Assembly: GCF_054482525.1 (NCBI RefSeq)
Contig: NZ_CM137006.1
Reading direction: 5' to 3' (one strand)
Length of the DNA: 64,000 nucleotides
Shown piece after piece: positions 51,211 to 59,234 of the stretch. Under the pieces are notes generated by a model, which saw only the letters and a program-made list of their open reading frames with translations, had not been told where the DNA came from and did no database searches. The first letter of the stretch is position 1; each line of letters begins with the position of its first letter. Position numbers and translations under genes: made by a program.

Positions 51211-51292
51211 CAACCAAACGACTCGGGGTGCCCTTCTGCGTGAAGGCTGAGAAATACCCGTATCACCTGATCTGGATAATGCCAGCGTAGGG
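51211..51292 (+). repeat. attL: left copy of the 82-bp direct repeat (thiM riboswitch aptamer segment)
   Basis: Identical to 59101-59182. Confidence 0.8.
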
Positions 51293-51375
51293 GGCCAAAA
51301 TAGTCTTGAAAATTATGTGGTTGTATCTCTTTTTGACCATAAATCATGCTGTTAAGGTACAAAAAGGGGTCGTTT

Positions 51376-52683
51376 ATGAGGTCAAGAACTCTCCCATACA
51401 CATTTCAGCGAAACGGTAATTACTATCTACAAATCCGGCTTTCGGATGGTCGGATATACAAAAAATCACTTTTTACTGACAGTTATCGCGAAGCATCGGC
51501 GTTGATGATTGGCCTTACTCCGCACATTCCTTTCGTTAAATCACTCGCTACTCCGTTGCCGCAATTTAATAAGTTTGTTTCAAACTTGATCGCTTCGTCA
51601 CGTAACGTAATGATTCCGTTGCCACTCCCTCAGCAATTGAACAATATTTCTAAAGAAGTTTTGCAGCTTCAACCACCAGCCAAACCGGAAAAGGTACTAA
51701 CACTTGCTGATGCGTGGGCTATGTACAAGGAGGAAAGAGGTCGAAATTGGACAAAATCGATCTCAATAGCAAATGAGCGTTATATGGAGGTATTGCTTGT
51801 TGTCTTGGGAAAAGAAACAGACGTAACGGCAATCACCAAACAAGATATTAAGCGAGTAATGGAAACTGTCGAAAACTTACCAAAGCGTGTAGTGCAACCG
51901 TATAGGTCAATGACTATTCAGCAACTAATCGAATGTGATGATGTGCTGCCAGAGGATTTAGTTGGTGCTGAGGCTGTACATAAGCACCTTAAAATCTACA
52001 AATCGTTATTCAAAACATTTCTGACTGAAAACAAAGATATTCTATCTAAGTCTCCGACTGATGGAATAGTAGCGGCACCATCCAAAGCTAGGTTTGGTGC
52101 ATACAGTGCAGCAGAAATGAAAAAATTTGTAGGATGGGCACTAAAGCAGCCTGATGGATGGCAGAAGTGGATCACTTTGTTGTTGGCGTACACAGGAGCC
52201 AGAAGAGGTGAGATTGCTAAACTGGAGAAGTCGCAGATCAAATTTGATGAAGATAGCCAGCGGCACTATCTTCTGATCGCGGAAAGAAGGCTGGGTAAAA
52301 CTGAGAATGCTACAAGACAGGTAGTGATTCATCCCAAACTGATTGAGTGGGGGTTTCTGGATTTTGTTAACCGCCAATGGAAAGAGAAAATCTTTTCGGA
52401 AGTCTCAGGTCGAAATATGTCAAAGATAGGTAAAGTTCTTTCAGATGTTCGTGATCAGCTTGATATTCCTTATCTTGATGATTATGGGCAGCGGCGCTTG
52501 GTGCATAGTTTCCGGCATACTATGATTTCTACTTGTTTAGCTGGTTGGGTGAGTAATTTGGCGCATCTGCAACAGGTGGTAGGTCATGAAAAGAGTGGAG
52601 TAGGGATTACCCAGCGTTATCTGCACACATTCCCACTTTCCACCGTTTGTTATGTGATCGATGGTCTTTGTTGGGAGACTTAG
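51376..52683 (+). CDS. int: tyrosine site-specific integrase
   Basis: ATG at 51376 preceded by SD aaaagggg; C-terminal catalytic block HSFRHTMISTCLAGW...GHEKSGVGITQRYLH (R, H-x-x-R, Y). Confidence 0.85.
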   Translation: MRSRTLPYTFQRNGNYYLQIRLSDGRIYKKSLFTDSYREASALMIGLTPHIPFVKSLATPLPQFNKFVSNLIASSRNVMIPLPLPQQLNNISKEVLQLQPPAKPEKVLTLADAWAMYKEERGRNWTKSISIANERYMEVLLVVLGKETDVTAITKQDIKRVMETVENLPKRVVQPYRSMTIQQLIECDDVLPEDLVGAEAVHKHLKIYKSLFKTFLTENKDILSKSPTDGIVAAPSKARFGAYSAAEMKKFVGWALKQPDGWQKWITLLLAYTGARRGEIAKLEKSQIKFDEDSQRHYLLIAERRLGKTENATRQVVIHPKLIEWGFLDFVNRQWKEKIFSEVSGRNMSKIGKVLSDVRDQLDIPYLDDYGQRRLVHSFRHTMISTCLAGWVSNLAHLQQVVGHEKSGVGITQRYLHTFPLSTVCYVIDGLCWET

Positions 52684-52811: not shown

Positions 52812-53537
52812 ATGGTTAAAAATTTAGGCAAAAAATACAAGTATGGCGATCAACCGATAAGAGCTATTACCATACAGATAATTGCTAATCAGTTTGGTGG
52901 GGCTGCAACGGCTAAGCAGGTAGATGATTATCTTAGAAAGCTATTTCCATCTTATAAAGATAATACTTGGCTCAATTTAATTGCTAATACAGTTAATTGT
53001 AAGCGGAGCTACTGGAGTTTCAACAAAACTGCCCGACGAACTGATGATGTAACTCATCGGCATCATAAGTATGACCGATTGTTCAAGCGTGGAAATATTT
53101 TTGAAATCTATCAACCATCTGTGCACGGTATTTGGGAATTATACCAGGATTTAGAAGGGATGTGGCGTTATCGTCAAGTAAAATCGGTTTTCGAAGAAGC
53201 TGTTGAGACGGCTGCAAAATTATCTTCAGTGGAACGAAAGCAAATTTTAGCGACAGAAAGTAAAATCCCGGAACTAATCGAAGTAACAACACGAGTTTAT
53301 AAACGAAGCCCATATGTAGTTGCTGAAGTTCTTTTGAGAGCAAATGGAAAATGTCAATATTGTAAGCGAGATGCTCCTTTTCTAAAGGAAGATGGTACTC
53401 CATTTCTAGAAGTTCATCATATTGAGTGGCTTTCAAAGGGGGGGGAGGACTCTGTGGAAAATGCTATTGCATTATGTCCTAATTGCCATAGACAAGCCCA
53501 TTATGGCGATCTGACATTACTACCTGTTAATAAATAG
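52812..53537 (+). CDS. McrA-like HNH endonuclease (candidate type IV / modification-dependent restriction or defense nuclease)
   Basis: C-terminal CQYCKRDAPF...LEVHHIEWLSKGGEDSVENAIALCPNCHRQAHY closely resembles the recalled McrA HNH region; N-terminal about 190 aa unrecognised. Confidence 0.65.
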   Translation: MVKNLGKKYKYGDQPIRAITIQIIANQFGGAATAKQVDDYLRKLFPSYKDNTWLNLIANTVNCKRSYWSFNKTARRTDDVTHRHHKYDRLFKRGNIFEIYQPSVHGIWELYQDLEGMWRYRQVKSVFEEAVETAAKLSSVERKQILATESKIPELIEVTTRVYKRSPYVVAEVLLRANGKCQYCKRDAPFLKEDGTPFLEVHHIEWLSKGGEDSVENAIALCPNCHRQAHYGDLTLLPVNK

Positions 53538-53614
53538 GCTTGATGAAAGTTCTATTTCTATATTTTTCAATATACAAATTTCCCCAAAAACGGCGTGAAT
53601 ATCACGCCGATCAA

Positions 53615-53962
53615 TCATACTTCAGAACACATACTCAATGTGTAAACAGCCATCTCCCCATCGGGATTAGAAGGGCGTAATACAAATATCGGTATACTGC
53701 CATTGTCAATGTATGTGGCTGCAACCCCTCCGTCAGGTGTAGCATACATCTTTGCGATGCTTTTTTGACCTACAAAATCAAGTCTCCAAGTTTTACCGCC
53801 AAGATTTATGGTCATTTTTTTATCTTGTATATCAAAAGTTGAATCTACAGAAACTTTCTGACTTCCCGAGTCAATATGACCTTCCTGTATTGCTTTACAG
53901 GAAAAGGTTGTGGCGTGGCCCATCACTGGAATTAACAAAGCGGCAAATACTAGTTTTTTCAT
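53615..53962 (-). CDS. hypothetical secreted protein
   Basis: Start placed at MKKLVFAALLIPVMGHA (signal peptide); divergent from the XRE-family gene. Confidence 0.45.
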   Translation of the reverse strand: MKKLVFAALLIPVMGHATTFSCKAIQEGHIDSGSQKVSVDSTFDIQDKKMTINLGGKTWRLDFVGQKSIAKMYATPDGGVAATYIDNGSIPIFVLRPSNPDGEMAVYTLSMCSEV

Positions 53963-54072
53963 TTGTCTCCCTTGGTGTGTCAAATGGATGGTGATGCTAA
54001 TAATACATGATTGATTCAAAATGTCACGATTAGTGCGTGGTTAATTGGTGCGTCAAATTGCATCTTTGTGCC

Positions 54073-54537
54073 ATGCGAAAGAATCTGAGATACCTTTTTG
54101 GACAACGAGTAAAAGAGTTCCGTATAGCTATTGGCTTAAGCCAAGAGGCCTTTGCAGATCGGTGTGGTTTTGCACGTAGTTATATGAGTCGAATTGAGCG
54201 TGGTTGCTCTAATGCATCTCTTGATGCAATTGAGGTTCTGGCTGACGCTTTGCGTATTGAGCCTTGGCAGTTACTGGCTTCTGATTCAAGGAAACCTGAT
54301 GATCAGGAGGTACTTGTTCCTTATGCTGCAGATGGGTCGTGTTTTCATCCAGGATTGGCAAGTACTCGCGATGGTTCGTTTAGAGTAGGGGAAAAATCAG
54401 CCCAGAAACGTTTCAGTTCGTTCAATGAAGCTCTCGAATACCTTCGTGGAATGGAAACCGCGAAGTGGCGTAGGCCTAATGCTAGTGGTAATTGGGGAAT
54501 TGTATCTGCGGTTAAATGGGATCGACTGAATCAATAA
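54073..54537 (+). CDS. XRE-family helix-turn-helix transcriptional regulator with C-terminal extension
   Basis: N-terminal HTH (LRYLFGQRVKEFRIAIGLSQEAFADRCGFARSYMSRIERG); start could also be 54037. Confidence 0.6.
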   Translation: MRKNLRYLFGQRVKEFRIAIGLSQEAFADRCGFARSYMSRIERGCSNASLDAIEVLADALRIEPWQLLASDSRKPDDQEVLVPYAADGSCFHPGLASTRDGSFRVGEKSAQKRFSSFNEALEYLRGMETAKWRRPNASGNWGIVSAVKWDRLNQ

Positions 54538-54703
54538 GATATCAGTAATTTTCGGGCCACTCCACAAGGCAATAAGTGGCTTAGTGGTGATTATCGAAGG
54601 GGAATACAAGCGAGCACCTAGGCACCATTGCAAGAACCGCTCAACGCTGAGATCAGCAAGCCCCGATTTTTGCCGACCGTCCCTGTCAAATATCAAGGAG
54701 GCA

Positions 54704-55255
54704 TTACGCCACCTGCTCTTTCTTGATACGTTGCACCGTCTGCGTGCTGACACTGAAATCTTTTGCTACGCTCCGAATTGAGCCACCATTCGCGAGAGCG
54801 GCAGCAATTCCCGCTCGATCAATTGCTTTTCCATTACCACGTTTTGCTATACGTCCAGCGGCCTTGGCTGCGGCGATCCCTTCACGTTGACGCTCAAGCA
54901 TCATTTCACGTTCCATTTGTGCCACTGCTGCAAGAACTGTGAGCATCATATTCCCTGCGGGAGAGTTCTTTCCTGTCTTAAAGTCTTCTTTATGGAAATG
55001 CACAGACACGCCGCGCTTTGTTAATTGCTCTACAGTTGCCAGAAGGTCGGCTGTATTACGACAAAGGCGATCAATACTATGGACGTGTAACACGTCACCC
55101 TCCCGCACATAGTTCATCATTGCCTCAAACTGTGGGCGCTGAGTGTTCTTGCCTGACGCTTTATCTTCAAAGACTTTATCAAGAGTTACTCCTGCTAATT
55201 GACGGTCTGTGTTTTGTTGCACAGTCGATACCCTAATGTATCCAATATTAGCCAT
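54704..55255 (-). CDS. small serine recombinase (resolvase/invertase family)
   Basis: N-terminal catalytic motif GYIRVSTVQQ (Ser nucleophile) and C-terminal HTH; 183 aa. Confidence 0.8.
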   Translation of the reverse strand: MANIGYIRVSTVQQNTDRQLAGVTLDKVFEDKASGKNTQRPQFEAMMNYVREGDVLHVHSIDRLCRNTADLLATVEQLTKRGVSVHFHKEDFKTGKNSPAGNMMLTVLAAVAQMEREMMLERQREGIAAAKAAGRIAKRGNGKAIDRAGIAAALANGGSIRSVAKDFSVSTQTVQRIKKEQVA

Positions 55256-55741
55256 CTTCTTTTTTCTTCTGTATTGATTTGTGTGTAGTGATTATTGAAC
55301 GTGTTGATTAGGTGTGTAAAGTACTTTTTTCACTACGAAATTCGAAGTTTTTTAGTGTGGTGATTTAGCCTGCCTTATCACTACACTTCTTGCATGAGAA
55401 TCATGTAGTTACATTTTGGTAAAATTAGCAAGCTATTAAATTGTGTGTTTATTTTGAAAAAATAATTTTTGTTGCATTAAAGAAAACTTGTTCGACAAAT
55501 AATAGGTTGATTTTTGATCAATAATTTCTGATAGTGCTCTGTAAGCCGCATTACACAAGGCGCAGCGAAAGTGATGTAAAAGTGAAGAAAGCTAACATTG
55601 CACTTTTAAACTACTTTTCATTGAATTTTTTAGTATGGAATTACACAGGAATAAGTTAGGGATATTCTATGATTTACACAGGGAATATAGGGGGATTATG
55701 GTATTACACAGAGTGAGTGCTATGTGATGATTGGTAGTAAC

Positions 55742-55850
55742 GGTAGGTCACTGTGAACTAGGGGGGTAGGTCACTGTGAACTAGGGGGGTAGGTCACTGT
55801 GAGCTAGGGGGTAGGTCACTGTGAACTAGGGGGTAGGTCACTGTGAACTA
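55742..55850 (+). repeat. iteron array (5 direct repeats of about 22-24 bp), candidate replication origin
   Basis: ggtaggtcactgtgaactaggggg repeated five times head-to-tail, flanked by AT-rich DNA and further ttacacag / gtgtaatt motifs. Confidence 0.7.
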
Positions 55851-57106
55851 CAATAAGACTATAATAAGACTATTAATAAAACTATATTAGATTATTAATT
55901 AGATCATAATAATAATATTCTTTATATCTATATATATATGATCTTTTGCCTTCCGGCGTTAGCTTCACTCTCTGGCAAGCAGCCTTACTCCGCTACCTTT
56001 CGGGCTACGTTGGCTGGCCCGTTCCGCTCACACCGAAAGCAAAGCGTTACTTTCTTCGTGTAACTTCGTTGGCGGTAACGCCCACGAAGGAATACTATTG
56101 CGCTGTGCGCAGTAAGAGTAATCACCTAACCAATCATCTGATTGCTTACGTGTTAACTCTCTCTAACTCTTAATTACCCTCCTACATTTAATAACTCTCG
56201 TTATTCTCTGTAGTTGTGTAATTACTCGAAGAGAGAGCGGCTAAAGCTCAATTACACTCTGCTTTCCTCGTGTAATTTCACTAAGCCTCAATACAATTTC
56301 ACTTCCTACATTCTGTAGTCGTGTAATTGTTTTCGGTGGAAAAGCCAGAGGCGACACCGAAAGAGAATTCTGATCTTATTAATCTTATCTATCTTAGTTA
56401 TCTTACTTACTTTATCTACTTTATTATTAATAATAGCTTTATAAGCTCTCTGTGTAGCTCTCTGACGCAAGAAACAGAGTTCAGGAAGGGAATCACCTTA
56501 GAAAAGTGTTCTTTGCGTCATAATGTGTTTTATGAAGGATTCAGAGGTGTTTCATAACAGAGATGTATAGAGGATACTTTAGGTAATTAAAAATAAGGGG
56601 TCTAAATGCTTCTCTAACAGCATTAAGCAGGGTAGAGAATGGAAACCGCTTTGCCTACATATATAAACTCACTACAGGGCTTTACAGAGCGTTTTATAAA
56701 GTGACTCTCTGTTTTATATCTACCATCACCTTTTCATATACCTAACAAATACAAAATAAGCCCCTTAAATAAGCCTCTGGCGAGCTAAACAGCCATTACA
56801 TAAGAGAATGTATTGCTTTTATCAAAACCTCGTTAGAACGCGTTTTAGAGCGTTTTAGCGGATAATGAAGAATAGCACTACACAGGAGAGCACGAATTGC
56901 TAAGAAAAAATGTAACTACATGAAAAAGATCAGATTTTTTGTGAAAAGGTATTGACAAACGTCTCTTTCTGTGCAATAATAGGTATTAGAGGGACAGGAA
57001 TAGATTCTTATCCTCTAAATAATTAAACCAATGCACCGCACTTTGAAGCCCAAGGCTTGTAAGGTGTGTTTTTTCTTTTAACCAAATAGAATAAGGAGGC
57101 TAATTA

Positions 57107-57295
57107 ATGAAATATTTTACTCCACAGGATGTAGTAGAAGCCTGGAAACGTGGTGAGATCAACCGCTTTAAAGTAAGGATGTATAGAAACACCGCTCGCC
57201 GTTGTGGTTATCCAGAGCGTGAAAAATGTTTTGACGATGCACTAAAAATTATTGATGAACTGCGTAAAGCTGAGAAAGAAGCAGAGAAAAAATAA
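57107..57295 (+). CDS. hypothetical small protein (62 aa)
   Basis: ATG preceded by strong SD aaggagg; first of four co-directional genes each with a strong SD. Confidence 0.45.
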   Translation: MKYFTPQDVVEAWKRGEINRFKVRMYRNTARRCGYPEREKCFDDALKIIDELRKAEKEAEKK

Positions 57296-57317
57296 TAGAC
57301 AAGAGAAGGAGAAAACT

Positions 57318-57485
57318 ATGAGCGAAACTAAGAAACCAATTCCGCGCACTTACCTACACGTTGACCCTGAAATCTTCAAGGTTTTATTTGCTGAAGCCAA
57401 GAAAAGGCAAATTATGGTCAGTGATTTGATGTTAGAAATCATTACTGAAGCAGCAGAGAACATCAAACAAAAAAAGGGTAAGTGA
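57318..57485 (+). CDS. hypothetical small protein, possibly ribbon-helix-helix DNA-binding (56 aa)
   Basis: ATG preceded by SD aaggag; below the ORF-track cut-off from this start; RHH call is weak pattern-based inference. Confidence 0.4.
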   Translation: MSETKKPIPRTYLHVDPEIFKVLFAEAKKRQIMVSDLMLEIITEAAENIKQKKGK

Positions 57486-57536
57486 TCCTCATTCACTTTA
57501 GTAGCGCATTAAGCGTGATTTATAAGGAGATTTTTA

Positions 57537-58226
57537 ATGATTAATCAACTAACTTTTACAAAACACTATGACACGTTTGATAATGTATCAAAGATTTATT
57601 CTGATAAATTCCCTCAAGGAAAAGATTTAGATCTATTACATATTGTGCTTTATTTTCGATTCCTTAGTTATCAGGAAAACAACCTTAATTGTTATGAAAG
57701 TCACGAAACATTAGCTAAGATTTTTAAGTCTTCAGCGTCAACAATTAAACGTAAGATAAACGATCTTAAAGAGATGGGATTATTAGAAACATCCCCACAT
57801 CCTGATCCGTATATTTCATCTTTGATTTACAATGCTCTCCCTCTCACAGATGCACATATTACTCCCCCAGGAGAATCATCACTCTCTGATCTTTCTGAGG
57901 CAGAAGAAGCACAGGAACAACCTAAAGGCCATAAACAGCCTTCTTTTGATGTTCTTGATGATTGGGATACGCCTTTACCCTGGGAGACGGAAGAAACACC
58001 TGTTTCATCAAGTGAAAAAGTAGCTAATGATAATGAGGAGGATGTGTTAGAGAATTTTGCCTCTCTTATCATCCAGGAGAAACACACAAGAACAGGAGGA
58101 GCATCATTTATTGAGTTTGCAAATTCACTAGCTTGTAGATACGGGCTAAAACGACCAAATGGTATTGAGGCATATTTTTCTAAGAATTACCCAAATATAT
58201 ACGATGACTTTGATATTCCATTTTAA
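57537..58226 (+). CDS. putative winged-helix DNA-binding / replication-initiator-like protein
   Basis: 229-aa ORF with SD aaggag; N-terminal HTH-like segment and acidic C-terminus; lies downstream of the iteron array. Confidence 0.4.
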   Translation: MINQLTFTKHYDTFDNVSKIYSDKFPQGKDLDLLHIVLYFRFLSYQENNLNCYESHETLAKIFKSSASTIKRKINDLKEMGLLETSPHPDPYISSLIYNALPLTDAHITPPGESSLSDLSEAEEAQEQPKGHKQPSFDVLDDWDTPLPWETEETPVSSSEKVANDNEEDVLENFASLIIQEKHTRTGGASFIEFANSLACRYGLKRPNGIEAYFSKNYPNIYDDFDIPF

Positions 58227-58237
58227 TAAGGAGGGTT

Positions 58238-58483
58238 ATGATTCAATATTTAGTAAAAAATCAAGTAGACAGAATTCAGTGTAATGACACAGGAAAACGC
58301 ATCTACGAGACACTTGTTTACCTCTATAAAGGAAAGCCAACACCGCTAAAATATAGCGATGTGTTACATCGAGCAGGTTGCTCTGAGTCAGGTTTAAAAT
58401 TCTGGCTGAAACAGCTATCAAATTTCGGTGTTATTGAAATGAAAGAGCTGTCTTTTTCTACATTCAACCTCAAGAAGTTATAG
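58238..58483 (+). CDS. hypothetical small DNA-binding-like protein (81 aa)
   Basis: ATG preceded by SD aaggagg. Confidence 0.4.
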   Translation: MIQYLVKNQVDRIQCNDTGKRIYETLVYLYKGKPTPLKYSDVLHRAGCSESGLKFWLKQLSNFGVIEMKELSFSTFNLKKL

Positions 58484-58648: not shown

Positions 58649-58888
58649 TTATAACTTCGTGGTGTCAAGTCCAGCAGCTTTGAGTCGCTCGGTAAGATTT
58701 CTCATTTTGCTGAACTCTGTACCAAAGCTGGCTTTAAGTCCTACACCTTCACAAAACTCTTTTGCCGTAACCTTTTTCAGATGGTCAGCATATTTGATCA
58801 TCTGGAGGTGCATTTCCATCGTTTGGCTATTTCGTGGTGCGCTGCTAATGGCTTGCTTAATGTTCTCGTAGATCTGGGTTTCTGTCAT
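58649..58888 (-). CDS. hypothetical small HTH-like protein (79 aa)
   Basis: 79-aa ORF convergent with the four-gene module; possible HTH (VTAKEFCEGVGLKASFGTEFSKM). Confidence 0.35.
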   Translation of the reverse strand: MTETQIYENIKQAISSAPRNSQTMEMHLQMIKYADHLKKVTAKEFCEGVGLKASFGTEFSKMRNLTERLKAAGLDTTKL

Positions 58889-59100: not shown

Positions 59101-59234
59101 CAACCAAACGACTCGGGGTGCCCTTCTGCGTGAAGGCTGAGAAATACCCGTATCACCTGATCTGGATAATGCCAGCGTAGGGAAGTCACGGACCACCAGG
59201 TCATTGCTTCTTCACGTTATGGCAGGAGCAAACT
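59101..59234 (+). promoter_or_regulatory. thiM TPP riboswitch (thi-box aptamer plus expression platform)
   Basis: Sequence cgactcggggtgcccttctgcgtgaaggctgagaaatacccgtatcacctgatctggataatgccagcgtagggaagtc... matches the E. coli thiM riboswitch from memory; ends at the thiM start codon; the first 82 nt double as attR. Confidence 0.85.

What the first reader, a model, noticed from the sequence alone, without database searches (positions are those of the whole stretch)
53615..54537. Divergent secreted-protein / XRE-regulator pair of unknown function within the island
A 115-aa signal-peptide protein and a 150-166-aa XRE-HTH protein with an extra C-terminal domain are divergently arranged with a short shared control region (53963-54072). 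Together with the upstream HNH gene they form the accessory cargo block of the island; the pair could be an immunity/regulatory or surface-exclusion module.
Basis: inference. Interest (0 to 1): 0.4.

Follow-up and report, generated by a model that had tools for sequence, protein, structure and literature searches.

The report
Regulator paired with swappable exported-protein gene
A small mobile two-gene unit in an E. coli genomic island pairs a conserved DNA-binding regulator, which carries an undescribed extra domain, with a back-to-back gene for a protein exported to the cell envelope; in related bacteria that exported partner is replaced by unrelated exported proteins, which marks it as a variable, probably protective, payload.

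Summary
Gene 53615-53962 (-) encodes a 115-aa Sec-exported protein. Gene 54073-54537 (+) encodes a 154-aa XRE protein. They are divergent across 110 bp, inside a 7,890-bp island inserted in the thiM TPP riboswitch.

Full-length XRE relatives occur across gamma- and beta-proteobacteria, mostly in integrase/resolvase islands where flanks are readable. In 27 of 29 loci the divergent upstream gene encodes a signal-peptide, lipoprotein or membrane protein, from about ten families without annotation. Tandem ATTnGTGCGTGG boxes precede every XRE gene. Here a third copy abuts the small gene's ribosome-binding site.

The small gene also persists without XRE, for example in 340 E. coli remnants.

Best reading: an autoregulating C-type regulator sets expression of a swappable envelope payload, probably for exclusion or immunity. 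That function is unproven. Rivals: island master repressor, abortive-infection pair, chance adjacency. Moderate interest; a new variant of a known kind.

The parts
53615..53962 (-). Gene for a 115-aa exported protein (about 98 aa when mature). All-beta by prediction, with two invariant Cys near the mature N- and C-termini.
   Evidence: ORF. Family of 27-52 clusters, named sources Enterobacteriaceae, 42-89% identical. Full-length match to phrog_35183, unknown function. No Pfam, NCBIfam or PADLOC family and no PDB sequence match. AF2 model unusable, pLDDT 46.
53912..53962 (-). Signal-peptide coding part (MKKLVFAALLIPVMGHA, predicted cleavage after GHA).
   Evidence: Read from the sequence. Flagged by the hydrophobicity heuristic. 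The cleavage site is inferred; no dedicated predictor was available.
53591..53609 (-). Intrinsic terminator of the small gene.
   Evidence: stem of 8 pairs (6 GC) followed by TTTTTGGGGA, starting 6 nt after the stop codon.
53963..54072 (.). 110-bp divergent control region.
   Evidence: The whole region aligns with the 109-nt spacer of the L104 cassette.
53972..53985 (+). Distal box TTGGTGTGTCAAAT, directly upstream of the small gene's Shine-Dalgarno sequence.
   Evidence: 13/14 identical to the proximal box 73 nt away. These are the only two matches to TTGGTGYGTCAAAT, even allowing two mismatches, in 64 kb.
54029..54058 (+). Proximal tandem boxes ATTAGTGCGT and ATTGGTGCGT(CAAAT), 15 bp apart, 15-44 nt upstream of the XRE ATG.
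   Evidence: D2. The consensus ATTnGTGCGTGG, in 2-3 tandem copies at 15-16 bp spacing, is conserved in 30 loci from gamma- and beta-proteobacteria.
54073..54537 (+). Gene for the 154-aa XRE regulator.
54085..54273 (+). N-terminal five-helix HTH domain (residues ~5-67), R-M controller type.
54310..54525 (+). C-terminal domain of about 75 aa (strand; beta-hairpin; helix; three strands) with the motif WRRPNxxGNWG. Undescribed.
   Evidence: Block pLDDT 89-94. No Pfam hit. No PDB sequence-profile hit. Present in 461 clusters at 50% identity: 33 short proteins (<=120 aa), 111 at the C-terminus of longer proteins, including ASCH, RNase_T and unannotated 300-aa proteins.

Best explanation
The unit small(-) | 110 bp | XRE(+) is a horizontally mobile two-gene cassette.

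XRE is a C-protein-type autoregulator. Its HTH domain binds tandem ATTnGTGCGTGG boxes that overlie its own promoter. It also binds a further copy next to the small gene's ribosome-binding site. In this way it sets expression of both its own gene and the divergent gene. Binding and regulation are inferred, not shown.

The divergent gene is the payload: a Sec-exported, probably disulfide-bonded, all-beta periplasmic protein. Export and the disulfide are inferred from the sequence.

Across the XRE family this payload position is a swappable slot that almost always holds an exported or membrane protein. These islands otherwise carry anti-phage cargo. The payload most likely protects at the envelope, through superinfection or entry exclusion, or through immunity to a periplasm-acting attack. 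This last step is inference only.

The conserved C-terminal domain of XRE is either an oligomerisation or second DNA-contact module, or a signal-sensing module. Which one is undetermined.
For: Regulator identity:
- HTH domain 48-52% identical to C.AhdI, with top structural hits to C-proteins and PADLOC Control_protein 6e-17.

Operator:
- 2-3 tandem boxes 15-16 bp apart, immediately upstream of the ATG, are conserved in 30 loci from E. coli to Pandoraea, Polynucleobacter and Gallionellaceae.
- The window has an extra 13/14 copy 73 bp away, abutting the small gene's Shine-Dalgarno sequence. No other matches occur in 64 kb.
- The 240-nt spacers of the 165-aa-partner class also hold extra box copies.

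Coupling:
- The cassette is co-inherited, with the same spacer length, in a different island backbone (L104/L105).
- When the small gene lacks XRE, its upstream DNA is entirely different and GATC-rich. In the cassette, therefore, its promoter must lie inside the XRE-type spacer.

Slot:
- The divergent neighbour is a signal-peptide, lipoprotein or TM protein in 27 of 29 loci.
- These neighbours fall into about ten families. Only some share domains, and none has a Pfam or PADLOC family.
- The background rate of exported-like ORFs in the same loci is 16.6% by my strict heuristic.

Context:
- The islands carry Gabija-like, Kiwa, R-M, SIR2 and AIPR genes and a type IV HNH.
- They fit the 'integrase-only defence islands' of PMC10121019.
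Against: - No function could be assigned to the small protein. It has no family match, no PDB match and an unusable model.
- The boxes are direct repeats. Classical C-boxes are inverted repeats.
- The promoter-like hexamers found are no more frequent than in shuffled sequence, and the transcription starts are unknown.
- Signal-peptide calls rest on a home-made heuristic plus reading by eye. The strict heuristic alone flags only 8 of the partner families.
- The loci are not phylogenetically independent.
- The small gene works without XRE elsewhere, so the regulator is not needed for its function.
- The defence role is guilt by association only.
Confidence: 0.42

Rival explanations
1. XRE is the island's master repressor, in the manner of phage CI or SaPI Stl. 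The HTH domain holds the island silent, and the C-terminal domain senses a helper-phage or stress signal. The small secreted gene is an unrelated moron that happens to sit beside it.
For: - The HTH-plus-extra-domain architecture fits.
- The gene lies between the integrase and the replication module, which has iterons at 55739-55855 and a Rep-like protein at 57537-58226.
- The island's res/ori/Rep half is shared with 12-kb elements that carry a capsid gene, which suggests satellite ancestry.
Against: - The exact boxes occur only in the pair's own spacer. None precedes the int, res or Rep genes.
- XRE is absent from sibling elements with the same res/ori/Rep module (L109-L111).
- It is absent from the Enterobacter island with a 79%-identical integrase at the same thiM site.
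- It is absent from the Kiwa islands.
- It therefore looks dispensable for these backbones.
Confidence: 0.2
2. The pair is a two-gene abortive-infection system. XRE keeps a harmful periplasmic effector off and releases it on infection, the way C-proteins time the expression of toxic restriction enzymes.
For: - The regulator is of the C-protein type.
- The partners are rapidly replaced envelope proteins.
- The neighbourhood is a defence island.
Against: - Intact homologues of the small gene persist without any XRE, in 340 E. coli remnants and in many islands. Unregulated expression is therefore evidently tolerated.
- No toxin-like domain was found.
Confidence: 0.1
3. There is no functional link. 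The divergent arrangement reflects recombination breakpoints in a cargo hotspot, and the two genes act independently.
For: - The small gene sits next to the resolvase, not XRE, in most other islands.
- XRE has many other partners.
Against: - The cassette is co-inherited with its spacer length preserved across backbones.
- A box copy sits at the small gene's 5' end.
- The partner is exported in 27 of 29 loci, against a background of about 17%.
Confidence: 0.15
4. It is a secreted-signal/receptor pair, like arbitrium or RRNPP systems. The exported protein or a fragment of it would be sensed by the XRE C-terminal domain.
For: An XRE regulator adjacent to an exported product is the RRNPP layout (established knowledge).
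Against: - There is no TPR domain.
- The partner is a folded protein of about 98 aa, not a pro-peptide.
- The C-domain is nearly invariant while the partners are unrelated families. This is the opposite of receptor-ligand co-variation.
Confidence: 0.03

Closest known systems
Restriction-modification controller (C) proteins, e.g. C.AhdI, C.BclI, C.Esp1396I
   Same: The HTH domain has the same fold and 48-52% identity to C.AhdI. Repeated operator boxes lie directly upstream of its own start codon, and no clear Shine-Dalgarno sequence is present. This suggests autoregulation and perhaps a near-leaderless transcript, as known for C genes (established knowledge; not tested here).
   Different: It has an extra 75-aa C-terminal domain. 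It is not in an R-M operon. The boxes are direct rather than inverted repeats. The gene it faces encodes an exported protein, not a nuclease.
Repressor-adjacent exclusion morons of temperate phages (e.g. Ltp of TP-J34 and Sie2009 next to int and the repressor; Cor, Llp, SieA). From my own knowledge.
   Same: A small, fast-evolving exported or lipoprotein gene sits next to the regulator and integrase of an integrated element.
   Different: No phage genes are present. The partner is divergent from the regulator rather than co-transcribed with it. No homology to any known exclusion protein was found. No phenotype is known.
Cryptic-prophage repressor/divergent-gene pairs in E. coli (RacR-ydaS/T, DicA-dicB). 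From my own knowledge.
   Same: An XRE-type regulator is divergently transcribed from the gene it controls, inside a degraded mobile element.
   Different: The targets of those pairs are cytoplasmic toxic or division-inhibiting genes. Here the target is exported, and it is tolerated without the regulator.
'Integrase-only' defence-carrying islands of E. coli (Hochhauser et al. 2023, PMC10121019)
   Same: Islands with integrase or recombinase genes and defence cargo but no recognisable transfer genes. The window island and its relatives fit that description.
   Different: That paper's main text mentions neither thiM, rcnR nor a riboswitch (0 occurrences each). I did not see this regulator/exported-protein cassette described in the passages I read.
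Defence-island regulators BrxR and CapH
   Same: HTH regulators found beside many different defence systems. The XRE N-domain weakly matches PADLOC capH (4e-9).
   Different: There is no WYL domain and no CapP protease partner. XRE keeps a fixed position next to the exported-protein slot rather than heading the variable defence operons.

Membership tests
R-M controller (C) protein | Five-helix XRE-type HTH closely similar to solved C-proteins | tested here: met
R-M controller (C) protein | Small single-domain protein (about 70-100 aa) | tested here: not met
   154 aa, with a separate, confidently folded 75-aa C-terminal domain.
R-M controller (C) protein | Encoded in an R-M operon, upstream of or overlapping the endonuclease gene | tested here: not met
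   The neighbours are an exported-protein gene and a convergent serine recombinase. The homologous loci examined show no R-M gene directly adjacent to or co-transcribed with XRE.
R-M controller (C) protein | Paired inverted-repeat C-boxes upstream of its own gene | tested here: inconclusive
   Conserved repeated boxes are present, but they are tandem direct repeats at 15-16 bp spacing. Binding was not tested.
Phage CI / satellite Stl-type master repressor | Divergent from the lytic, excision or replication operon, with operators at other element promoters | tested here: not met
   The divergent gene encodes an exported protein. No box copies occur elsewhere in the island. XRE is absent from sibling elements.
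Type II toxin-antitoxin with XRE antitoxin (HigA/HipB-like) | Co-directional two-gene operon with a cytoplasmic toxin | tested here: not met
   The genes are divergent and the partner has a signal peptide. Only weak N-domain hits to HipB and MqsA models, far below their cut-offs.
Superinfection / entry exclusion proteins | Small envelope-located protein encoded by a mobile element | tested here: met
   Signal peptide and invariant Cys pair. Location in an island.
Superinfection / entry exclusion proteins | Blocks phage DNA entry or conjugative entry | not testable with these tools
   Needs plaque, adsorption and DNA-entry assays, or mating assays.
RRNPP / arbitrium signalling | HTH fused to a TPR peptide-binding domain, plus a short secreted pro-peptide | tested here: not met
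   The C-domain is a 75-aa beta-rich module. The partner is 115 aa with a conserved fold-length mature region.
MliC/PliC-type periplasmic lysozyme inhibitors (a lead from memory: small beta protein with a terminal disulfide) | Match to the MliC family model (PF09864, accession recalled from memory) | tested here: not met
   The Pfam scan at E<=0.1 returns only a sub-threshold DUF6406 hit. The profile search against PDB finds no inhibitor.
PICI / capsid-forming PICI phage satellites (island level) | Integrase, replication module and phage-packaging or capsid genes | tested here: not met
   An integrase, iterons and a Rep-like gene are present. No packaging or capsid gene lies in the 7.9-kb island. 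Such genes occur only in sibling elements that share the replication module.

The most novel reading that the evidence does not exclude
The XRE-plus-C-domain regulator and its operator mark a conserved 'expression socket', found in beta- and gamma-proteobacterial mobile islands and also on E. coli plasmids. Unrelated envelope proteins are plugged into it: about ten families so far, all unannotated. These would be a hidden reservoir of new superinfection-exclusion or interbacterial-immunity proteins. The undescribed C-terminal domain would tune their expression in response to an infection or stress signal.
Probability: 0.25. Interest if true: 0.7.

Novelty: new variant of a known kind. Interest (0 to 1): 0.45.

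Why it matters
If the reading holds, a single conserved regulator gene could serve as a search handle for many unannotated envelope-acting protective proteins. Sequence-based defence finders detect such proteins poorly, because they are small, diverse and carry no known domains.

The work also defines an undescribed 75-aa domain. It occurs in 461 clusters at 50% identity, either in short proteins of 120 aa or less or fused to HTH, ASCH and RNase T domains.

It adds anatomy to the poorly understood 'integrase-only' defence islands of E. coli: a regulator cassette, an iteron origin with a Rep gene, a resolvase and a riboswitch attachment site. If the reading is wrong, the pair is simply two more hypothetical island genes.

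Tried and rejected
- **Structure of the small protein.** The AF2 model from a 17-sequence alignment has pLDDT 46, so no fold search was attempted on it.
- **Fold of the XRE C-domain.**
  - AFDB50 was unavailable.
  - A 29-sequence profile found nothing in PDB.
- **Family libraries.**
  - Pfam, NCBIfam, PADLOC and PHROGs give no function for the small protein.
  - Pfam and PADLOC give no credible family for nine other partner proteins or the 304-aa island protein. The only hits were two weak PADLOC matches (E 0.006 and 0.02) and sub-threshold Pfam hits on one protein.
- **Phage origin.** The small protein has no hit in 50,697 phage records. The C-domain has one hit, in an unannotated 9.7-kb metagenomic record.
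- **Context of other C-domain proteins.** Two look-ups were uninformative.
- **Literature.** No paper mentions DUF6538 or the RefSeq accessions of the island proteins. Searches for thiM or riboswitch integration found nothing relevant.
- **Non-coding RNA.** Rfam at E<=0.1 finds nothing in 53500-57200.
- **Promoters.** The consensus scan gives two face-to-face candidates in the spacer, but no more than shuffled sequence gives. I do not rely on them.
- **Rejected ideas.**
  - TA module: wrong orientation, exported partner.
  - C-protein controlling the HNH gene: HNH and XRE are not linked elsewhere.
  - Secreted signal plus receptor: the C-domain is invariant while partners vary.
  - MliC-like inhibitor: no model match.

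Full report
**1. Observation**

The window is E. coli chromosome. The 1,061 bases around the finding are 100% identical to strains PCN033, SCU-102 and others, and the pair occurs once per genome, on the chromosome, in 126 of 5,426 complete genomes.

The small gene:
- ORF 53615-53962 (-) gives a 115-aa protein beginning MKKLVFAALLIPVMGHA|TT.
- It has a GGAG 6 nt before the ATG (read).
- An intrinsic terminator lies at 53609-53591.

The XRE gene:
- ORF 54073-54537 (+) gives a 154-aa XRE protein.
- All 25 aligned homologues start at this Met, and RefSeq agrees.
- The spacer is 110 bp.

**2. The island**

The pair lies in a 7,890-bp insertion between rcnR and thiM. The insertion is bounded by a perfect 82-bp direct repeat (51211-51292 and 59101-59182). 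That repeat is most of the TPP riboswitch aptamer.

Gene order:

| Feature | Coordinates | Strand | Evidence |
|---|---|---|---|
| Tyrosine integrase | 51346-52683 | + | |
| HNH nuclease of type IV restriction kind | 52812-53537 | + | PADLOC 1e-23, |
| Small gene | 53615-53962 | - | |
| XRE gene | 54073-54537 | + | |
| Serine recombinase | 54704-55255 | - | PHROG DNA invertase 2e-61, |
| ORF-poor 1.85-kb stretch with five 22-23-bp iterons | 55256-57106 |. | |
| Small ORFs, including a Rep-like winged-helix protein at 57537-58226 | 57107-58483 | + | phrog_270, |
| 79-aa ORF, RefSeq 'HTH-like domain-containing protein' | 58649-58888 | - | |

**3. The regulator**

- *C-domain.* Residues ~80-154 form a strand, a beta-hairpin, a helix and three further strands. 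The nearly invariant motif is VPxAxDGSxFHPxL...FxxFxEALxYL...WRRPNxxGNWG. The domain has no Pfam hit and no PDB sequence-profile hit.
- *Spread of the C-domain.* It is nevertheless widespread. It occurs in 461 clusters at 50% identity. Of 153 domain hits among the 150 best-scoring proteins, 33 are in proteins of 120 aa or less and 111 are at the C-terminus of longer proteins. The longer proteins include ASCH-domain, RNase T-domain and unannotated ~300-aa proteins. Its function is unknown. I could not obtain a domain-only fold search.

**4. Where the regulator family lives**

Full-length relatives, 51-82% identical, occur in Enterobacterales, Yersinia, Pseudomonas and several beta-proteobacteria.

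Where flanks are readable, most of these loci are islands. They have a tyrosine integrase (often DUF6538-type), a small serine recombinase and variable defence cargo. The cargo includes Gabija-like OLD+UvrD, type I R-M, AAA15/TOPRIM and AIPR. Related islands that carry the small-protein gene but not XRE hold Kiwa, Eco29kI R-M and SIR2.

This matches the 'integrase-only' defence islands with unknown mobilisation described for E. coli (PMC10121019).

A 79%-identical copy also sits on E. coli plasmids. In the one plasmid context examined, IS1 copies flank it and it has been split by IS1 from its usual 165-aa partner.

**5. The conserved architecture**

In 27 of 29 evaluable loci, the gene immediately upstream of XRE and divergent from it encodes a protein with an N-terminal signal peptide, lipobox or membrane segment (sequences).

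The partners fall into about ten families:
- the 115-aa protein here;
- a 165-aa family common in Enterobacterales;
- a 243-247-aa family, and a 211-214-aa Pseudomonas family that shares one domain with it;
- a 130-aa protein that shares a different domain;
- lipoproteins of 169 and 71 aa;
- others of 138, 118, 204 and 148 aa.

Most pairs show no BLAST similarity. None has a credible Pfam or PADLOC family.

The background is lower. By a strict home-made heuristic, 16.6% of 463 ORFs in the same loci look exported, and eight partner families pass it. The rest I called by eye, for example the 165-aa protein's ...RAISWGVLGTLSLVLGLSAFAAVSA|E. The two exceptions are a methyltransferase-like gene (L040) and a locus where the exported gene is second in line (L046).

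Treated as roughly eleven independent families against a 30% background, nine or more exported partners has a binomial probability of about 6e-4. This is my own calculation. The family count and the background rate are approximations.

**6. Operator**

Aligning the 90 nt upstream of 30 XRE genes shows a conserved block. It contains two, and in three loci three, tandem boxes. The consensus is ATTnGTGCGTGG, the spacing is 15-16 bp, and the block ends about 20 nt before the ATG.

In the window:
- The proximal boxes are 54029-54038 and 54044-54053.
- A third copy, TTGGTGTGTCAAAT at 53972-53985, is 13/14 identical to 54045-54058. It lies directly upstream of the small gene's Shine-Dalgarno sequence.
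- These are the only two matches to TTGGTGYGTCAAAT, even allowing two mismatches, in 64 kb.
- No box precedes the int, res or Rep genes.

The 240-nt spacers of the 165-aa-partner class also contain extra box-like copies.

By analogy with C-proteins (established knowledge), I infer autoregulation plus control of the divergent promoter. Binding, promoter positions and the sign of regulation are not shown. The boxes are direct repeats, unlike classical C-boxes.

**7. Cassette behaviour**

In metagenomic loci L104 and L105, a 74%-identical small gene and a 67%-identical XRE gene are divergent across 109 nt. That spacer aligns along its whole length with the window's. The surrounding island is different: a 42%-identical integrase, a DUF5906 primase-like gene and AIPR. 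The pair therefore moves as a unit.

**8. Autonomy of the payload**

The small-protein family comprises 52 clusters. Every named source is Enterobacteriaceae. Both Cys are invariant down to 42% identity.

The family also occurs without XRE:
- next to the resolvase in E. coli Kiwa islands and in Buttiauxella;
- in Enterobacter kobei islands at the same thiM site, with a 79%-identical integrase;
- as a 43% paralogue in a 2.4-kb integrase-less remnant between thiM and rcnR in 340 of 5,426 E. coli genomes, beside another small signal-peptide protein.

In those XRE-less contexts its upstream DNA is unrelated and GATC-rich.

Three conclusions follow:
- The protein functions on its own.
- It is not toxic when XRE is absent.
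- In the cassette its promoter must lie within the XRE-type spacer.

**9. Interpretation**

The best-supported model is a C-type autoregulator that drives or limits a swappable envelope payload (confidence 0.42). The protective role of the payload is guilt by association with defence cargo and with the rapid turnover typical of arms-race genes. It is the weakest step.

Rivals:
- Island master repressor (0.2). Weakened by the absence of operators elsewhere and by XRE-less sibling islands.
- Abortive-infection pair (0.1). Weakened by XRE-less survival of the payload.
- Chance adjacency (0.15). Weakened by cassette co-inheritance and the exported-partner rule.
- Signal/receptor pair (0.03). Contradicted by an invariant C-domain facing unrelated partners.

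**10. Comparison and novelty**

The regulator works like a C-protein but fails membership on size, operon context and probably box symmetry. The layout resembles repressor-adjacent exclusion morons of temperate phages, and RacR/DicA-type pairs. It shares no homology with them, and here the partner is exported.

I rate it a new variant of a known kind, namely a regulator plus cargo gene on a mobile element. It carries an undescribed domain and a hitherto unnoticed partner rule. Interest is moderate (0.45): there is no phenotype, but a clear, testable pattern.

Noticed in passing
window 51211-51292 and 59101-59182 (Rfam TPP hits 51214-51309 and 59104-59200): The island is inserted in the thiM TPP riboswitch and is flanked by a perfect 82-bp direct repeat of the aptamer. 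The left copy keeps the native upstream DNA and now sits just upstream of the island integrase (ORF start 51346; RefSeq start ~51375). The right copy, with the native expression platform, precedes thiM. Enterobacter kobei islands with a 79%-identical integrase lie next to thiM too. Most E. coli genomes have an empty site.
   Followed up: partly
window 55739-55855; 57537-58226: Five tandem 22-23-bp iterons (GGGGGTAGGTCACTGTGAACTA) lie in an ORF-poor 1.85-kb stretch. A Rep-like winged-helix protein (phrog_270) is encoded downstream. Together they suggest an iteron-type origin, so the island probably replicates after excision. DNA matching part or most of 55100-57200 at mostly 80-95% identity occurs in 726 of 5,426 E. 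coli genomes (typically window ~55510-57088), far more than carry the XRE/small pair.
   Followed up: partly
window 55401-55417 and 56907-56923, next to the serine recombinase 54704-55255: A perfect 17-nt inverted repeat brackets 1,489 nt that include the iterons. Each arm is an ATGTA-GT-TACAT palindrome with an asymmetric 2-bp centre. This looks like crossover sites for the adjacent invertase-type recombinase, so the segment may be invertible. I saw no clearly flipped copies in the genome search, but did not examine it properly.
   Followed up: partly
window 53438-53445 (inside HNH gene 52812-53537): A G8 homopolymer lies in the HNH catalytic region. Strain PCN033 has G9 at the same place, which frameshifts the gene; RefSeq annotates it there as a truncated HNH gene plus a 27-aa ORF. 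This could be phase variation of a type IV restriction-like nuclease, or a homopolymer sequencing error.
   Followed up: partly
L103 (NZ_CP030767.1 2377599-2379967); same thiM-rcnR site as the window: 340 of 5,426 E. coli genomes carry a 2.4-kb remnant here without an integrase. It holds a 43% paralogue of the small secreted protein, a second 104-aa signal-peptide protein annotated 'outer membrane protein', a fragment of the 81-aa ORF, and the 79-aa ORF (RefSeq 'HTH-like'). Only one riboswitch copy remains.
   Followed up: yes
L109 (tRNA-Thr near proA) and L110/L111 (tRNA-Gly near actS) in other E. coli genomes: Parts of the window island's right-hand module recur at 95-98% protein identity in elements next to tRNA genes. 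L109 shares the recombinase and the 62-aa ORF. L110/L111 share the 62-aa ORF, the Rep-like gene and the 81-aa ORF. The ~12-kb tRNA-Gly element (L110/L111) also encodes a 'major capsid protein', a 609-aa protein, a 'baseplate protein' and its own tyrosine integrase. This suggests that the window island shares ancestry with a small satellite-like or mini-prophage family but lacks any structural genes.
   Followed up: partly
L002:7875-8000, L106:8875-9000, L007:7875-8000 (upstream of small-protein homologues that lack XRE): A conserved upstream region is rich in GATC-containing palindromes (TTGATCAATTTTATCGATCAAT...AAATTGATCGT). It could be a Dam-sensitive site or the operator of a different regulator. 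These loci also have further tiny signal-peptide ORFs (64-68 aa) divergent from the small gene.
   Followed up: no
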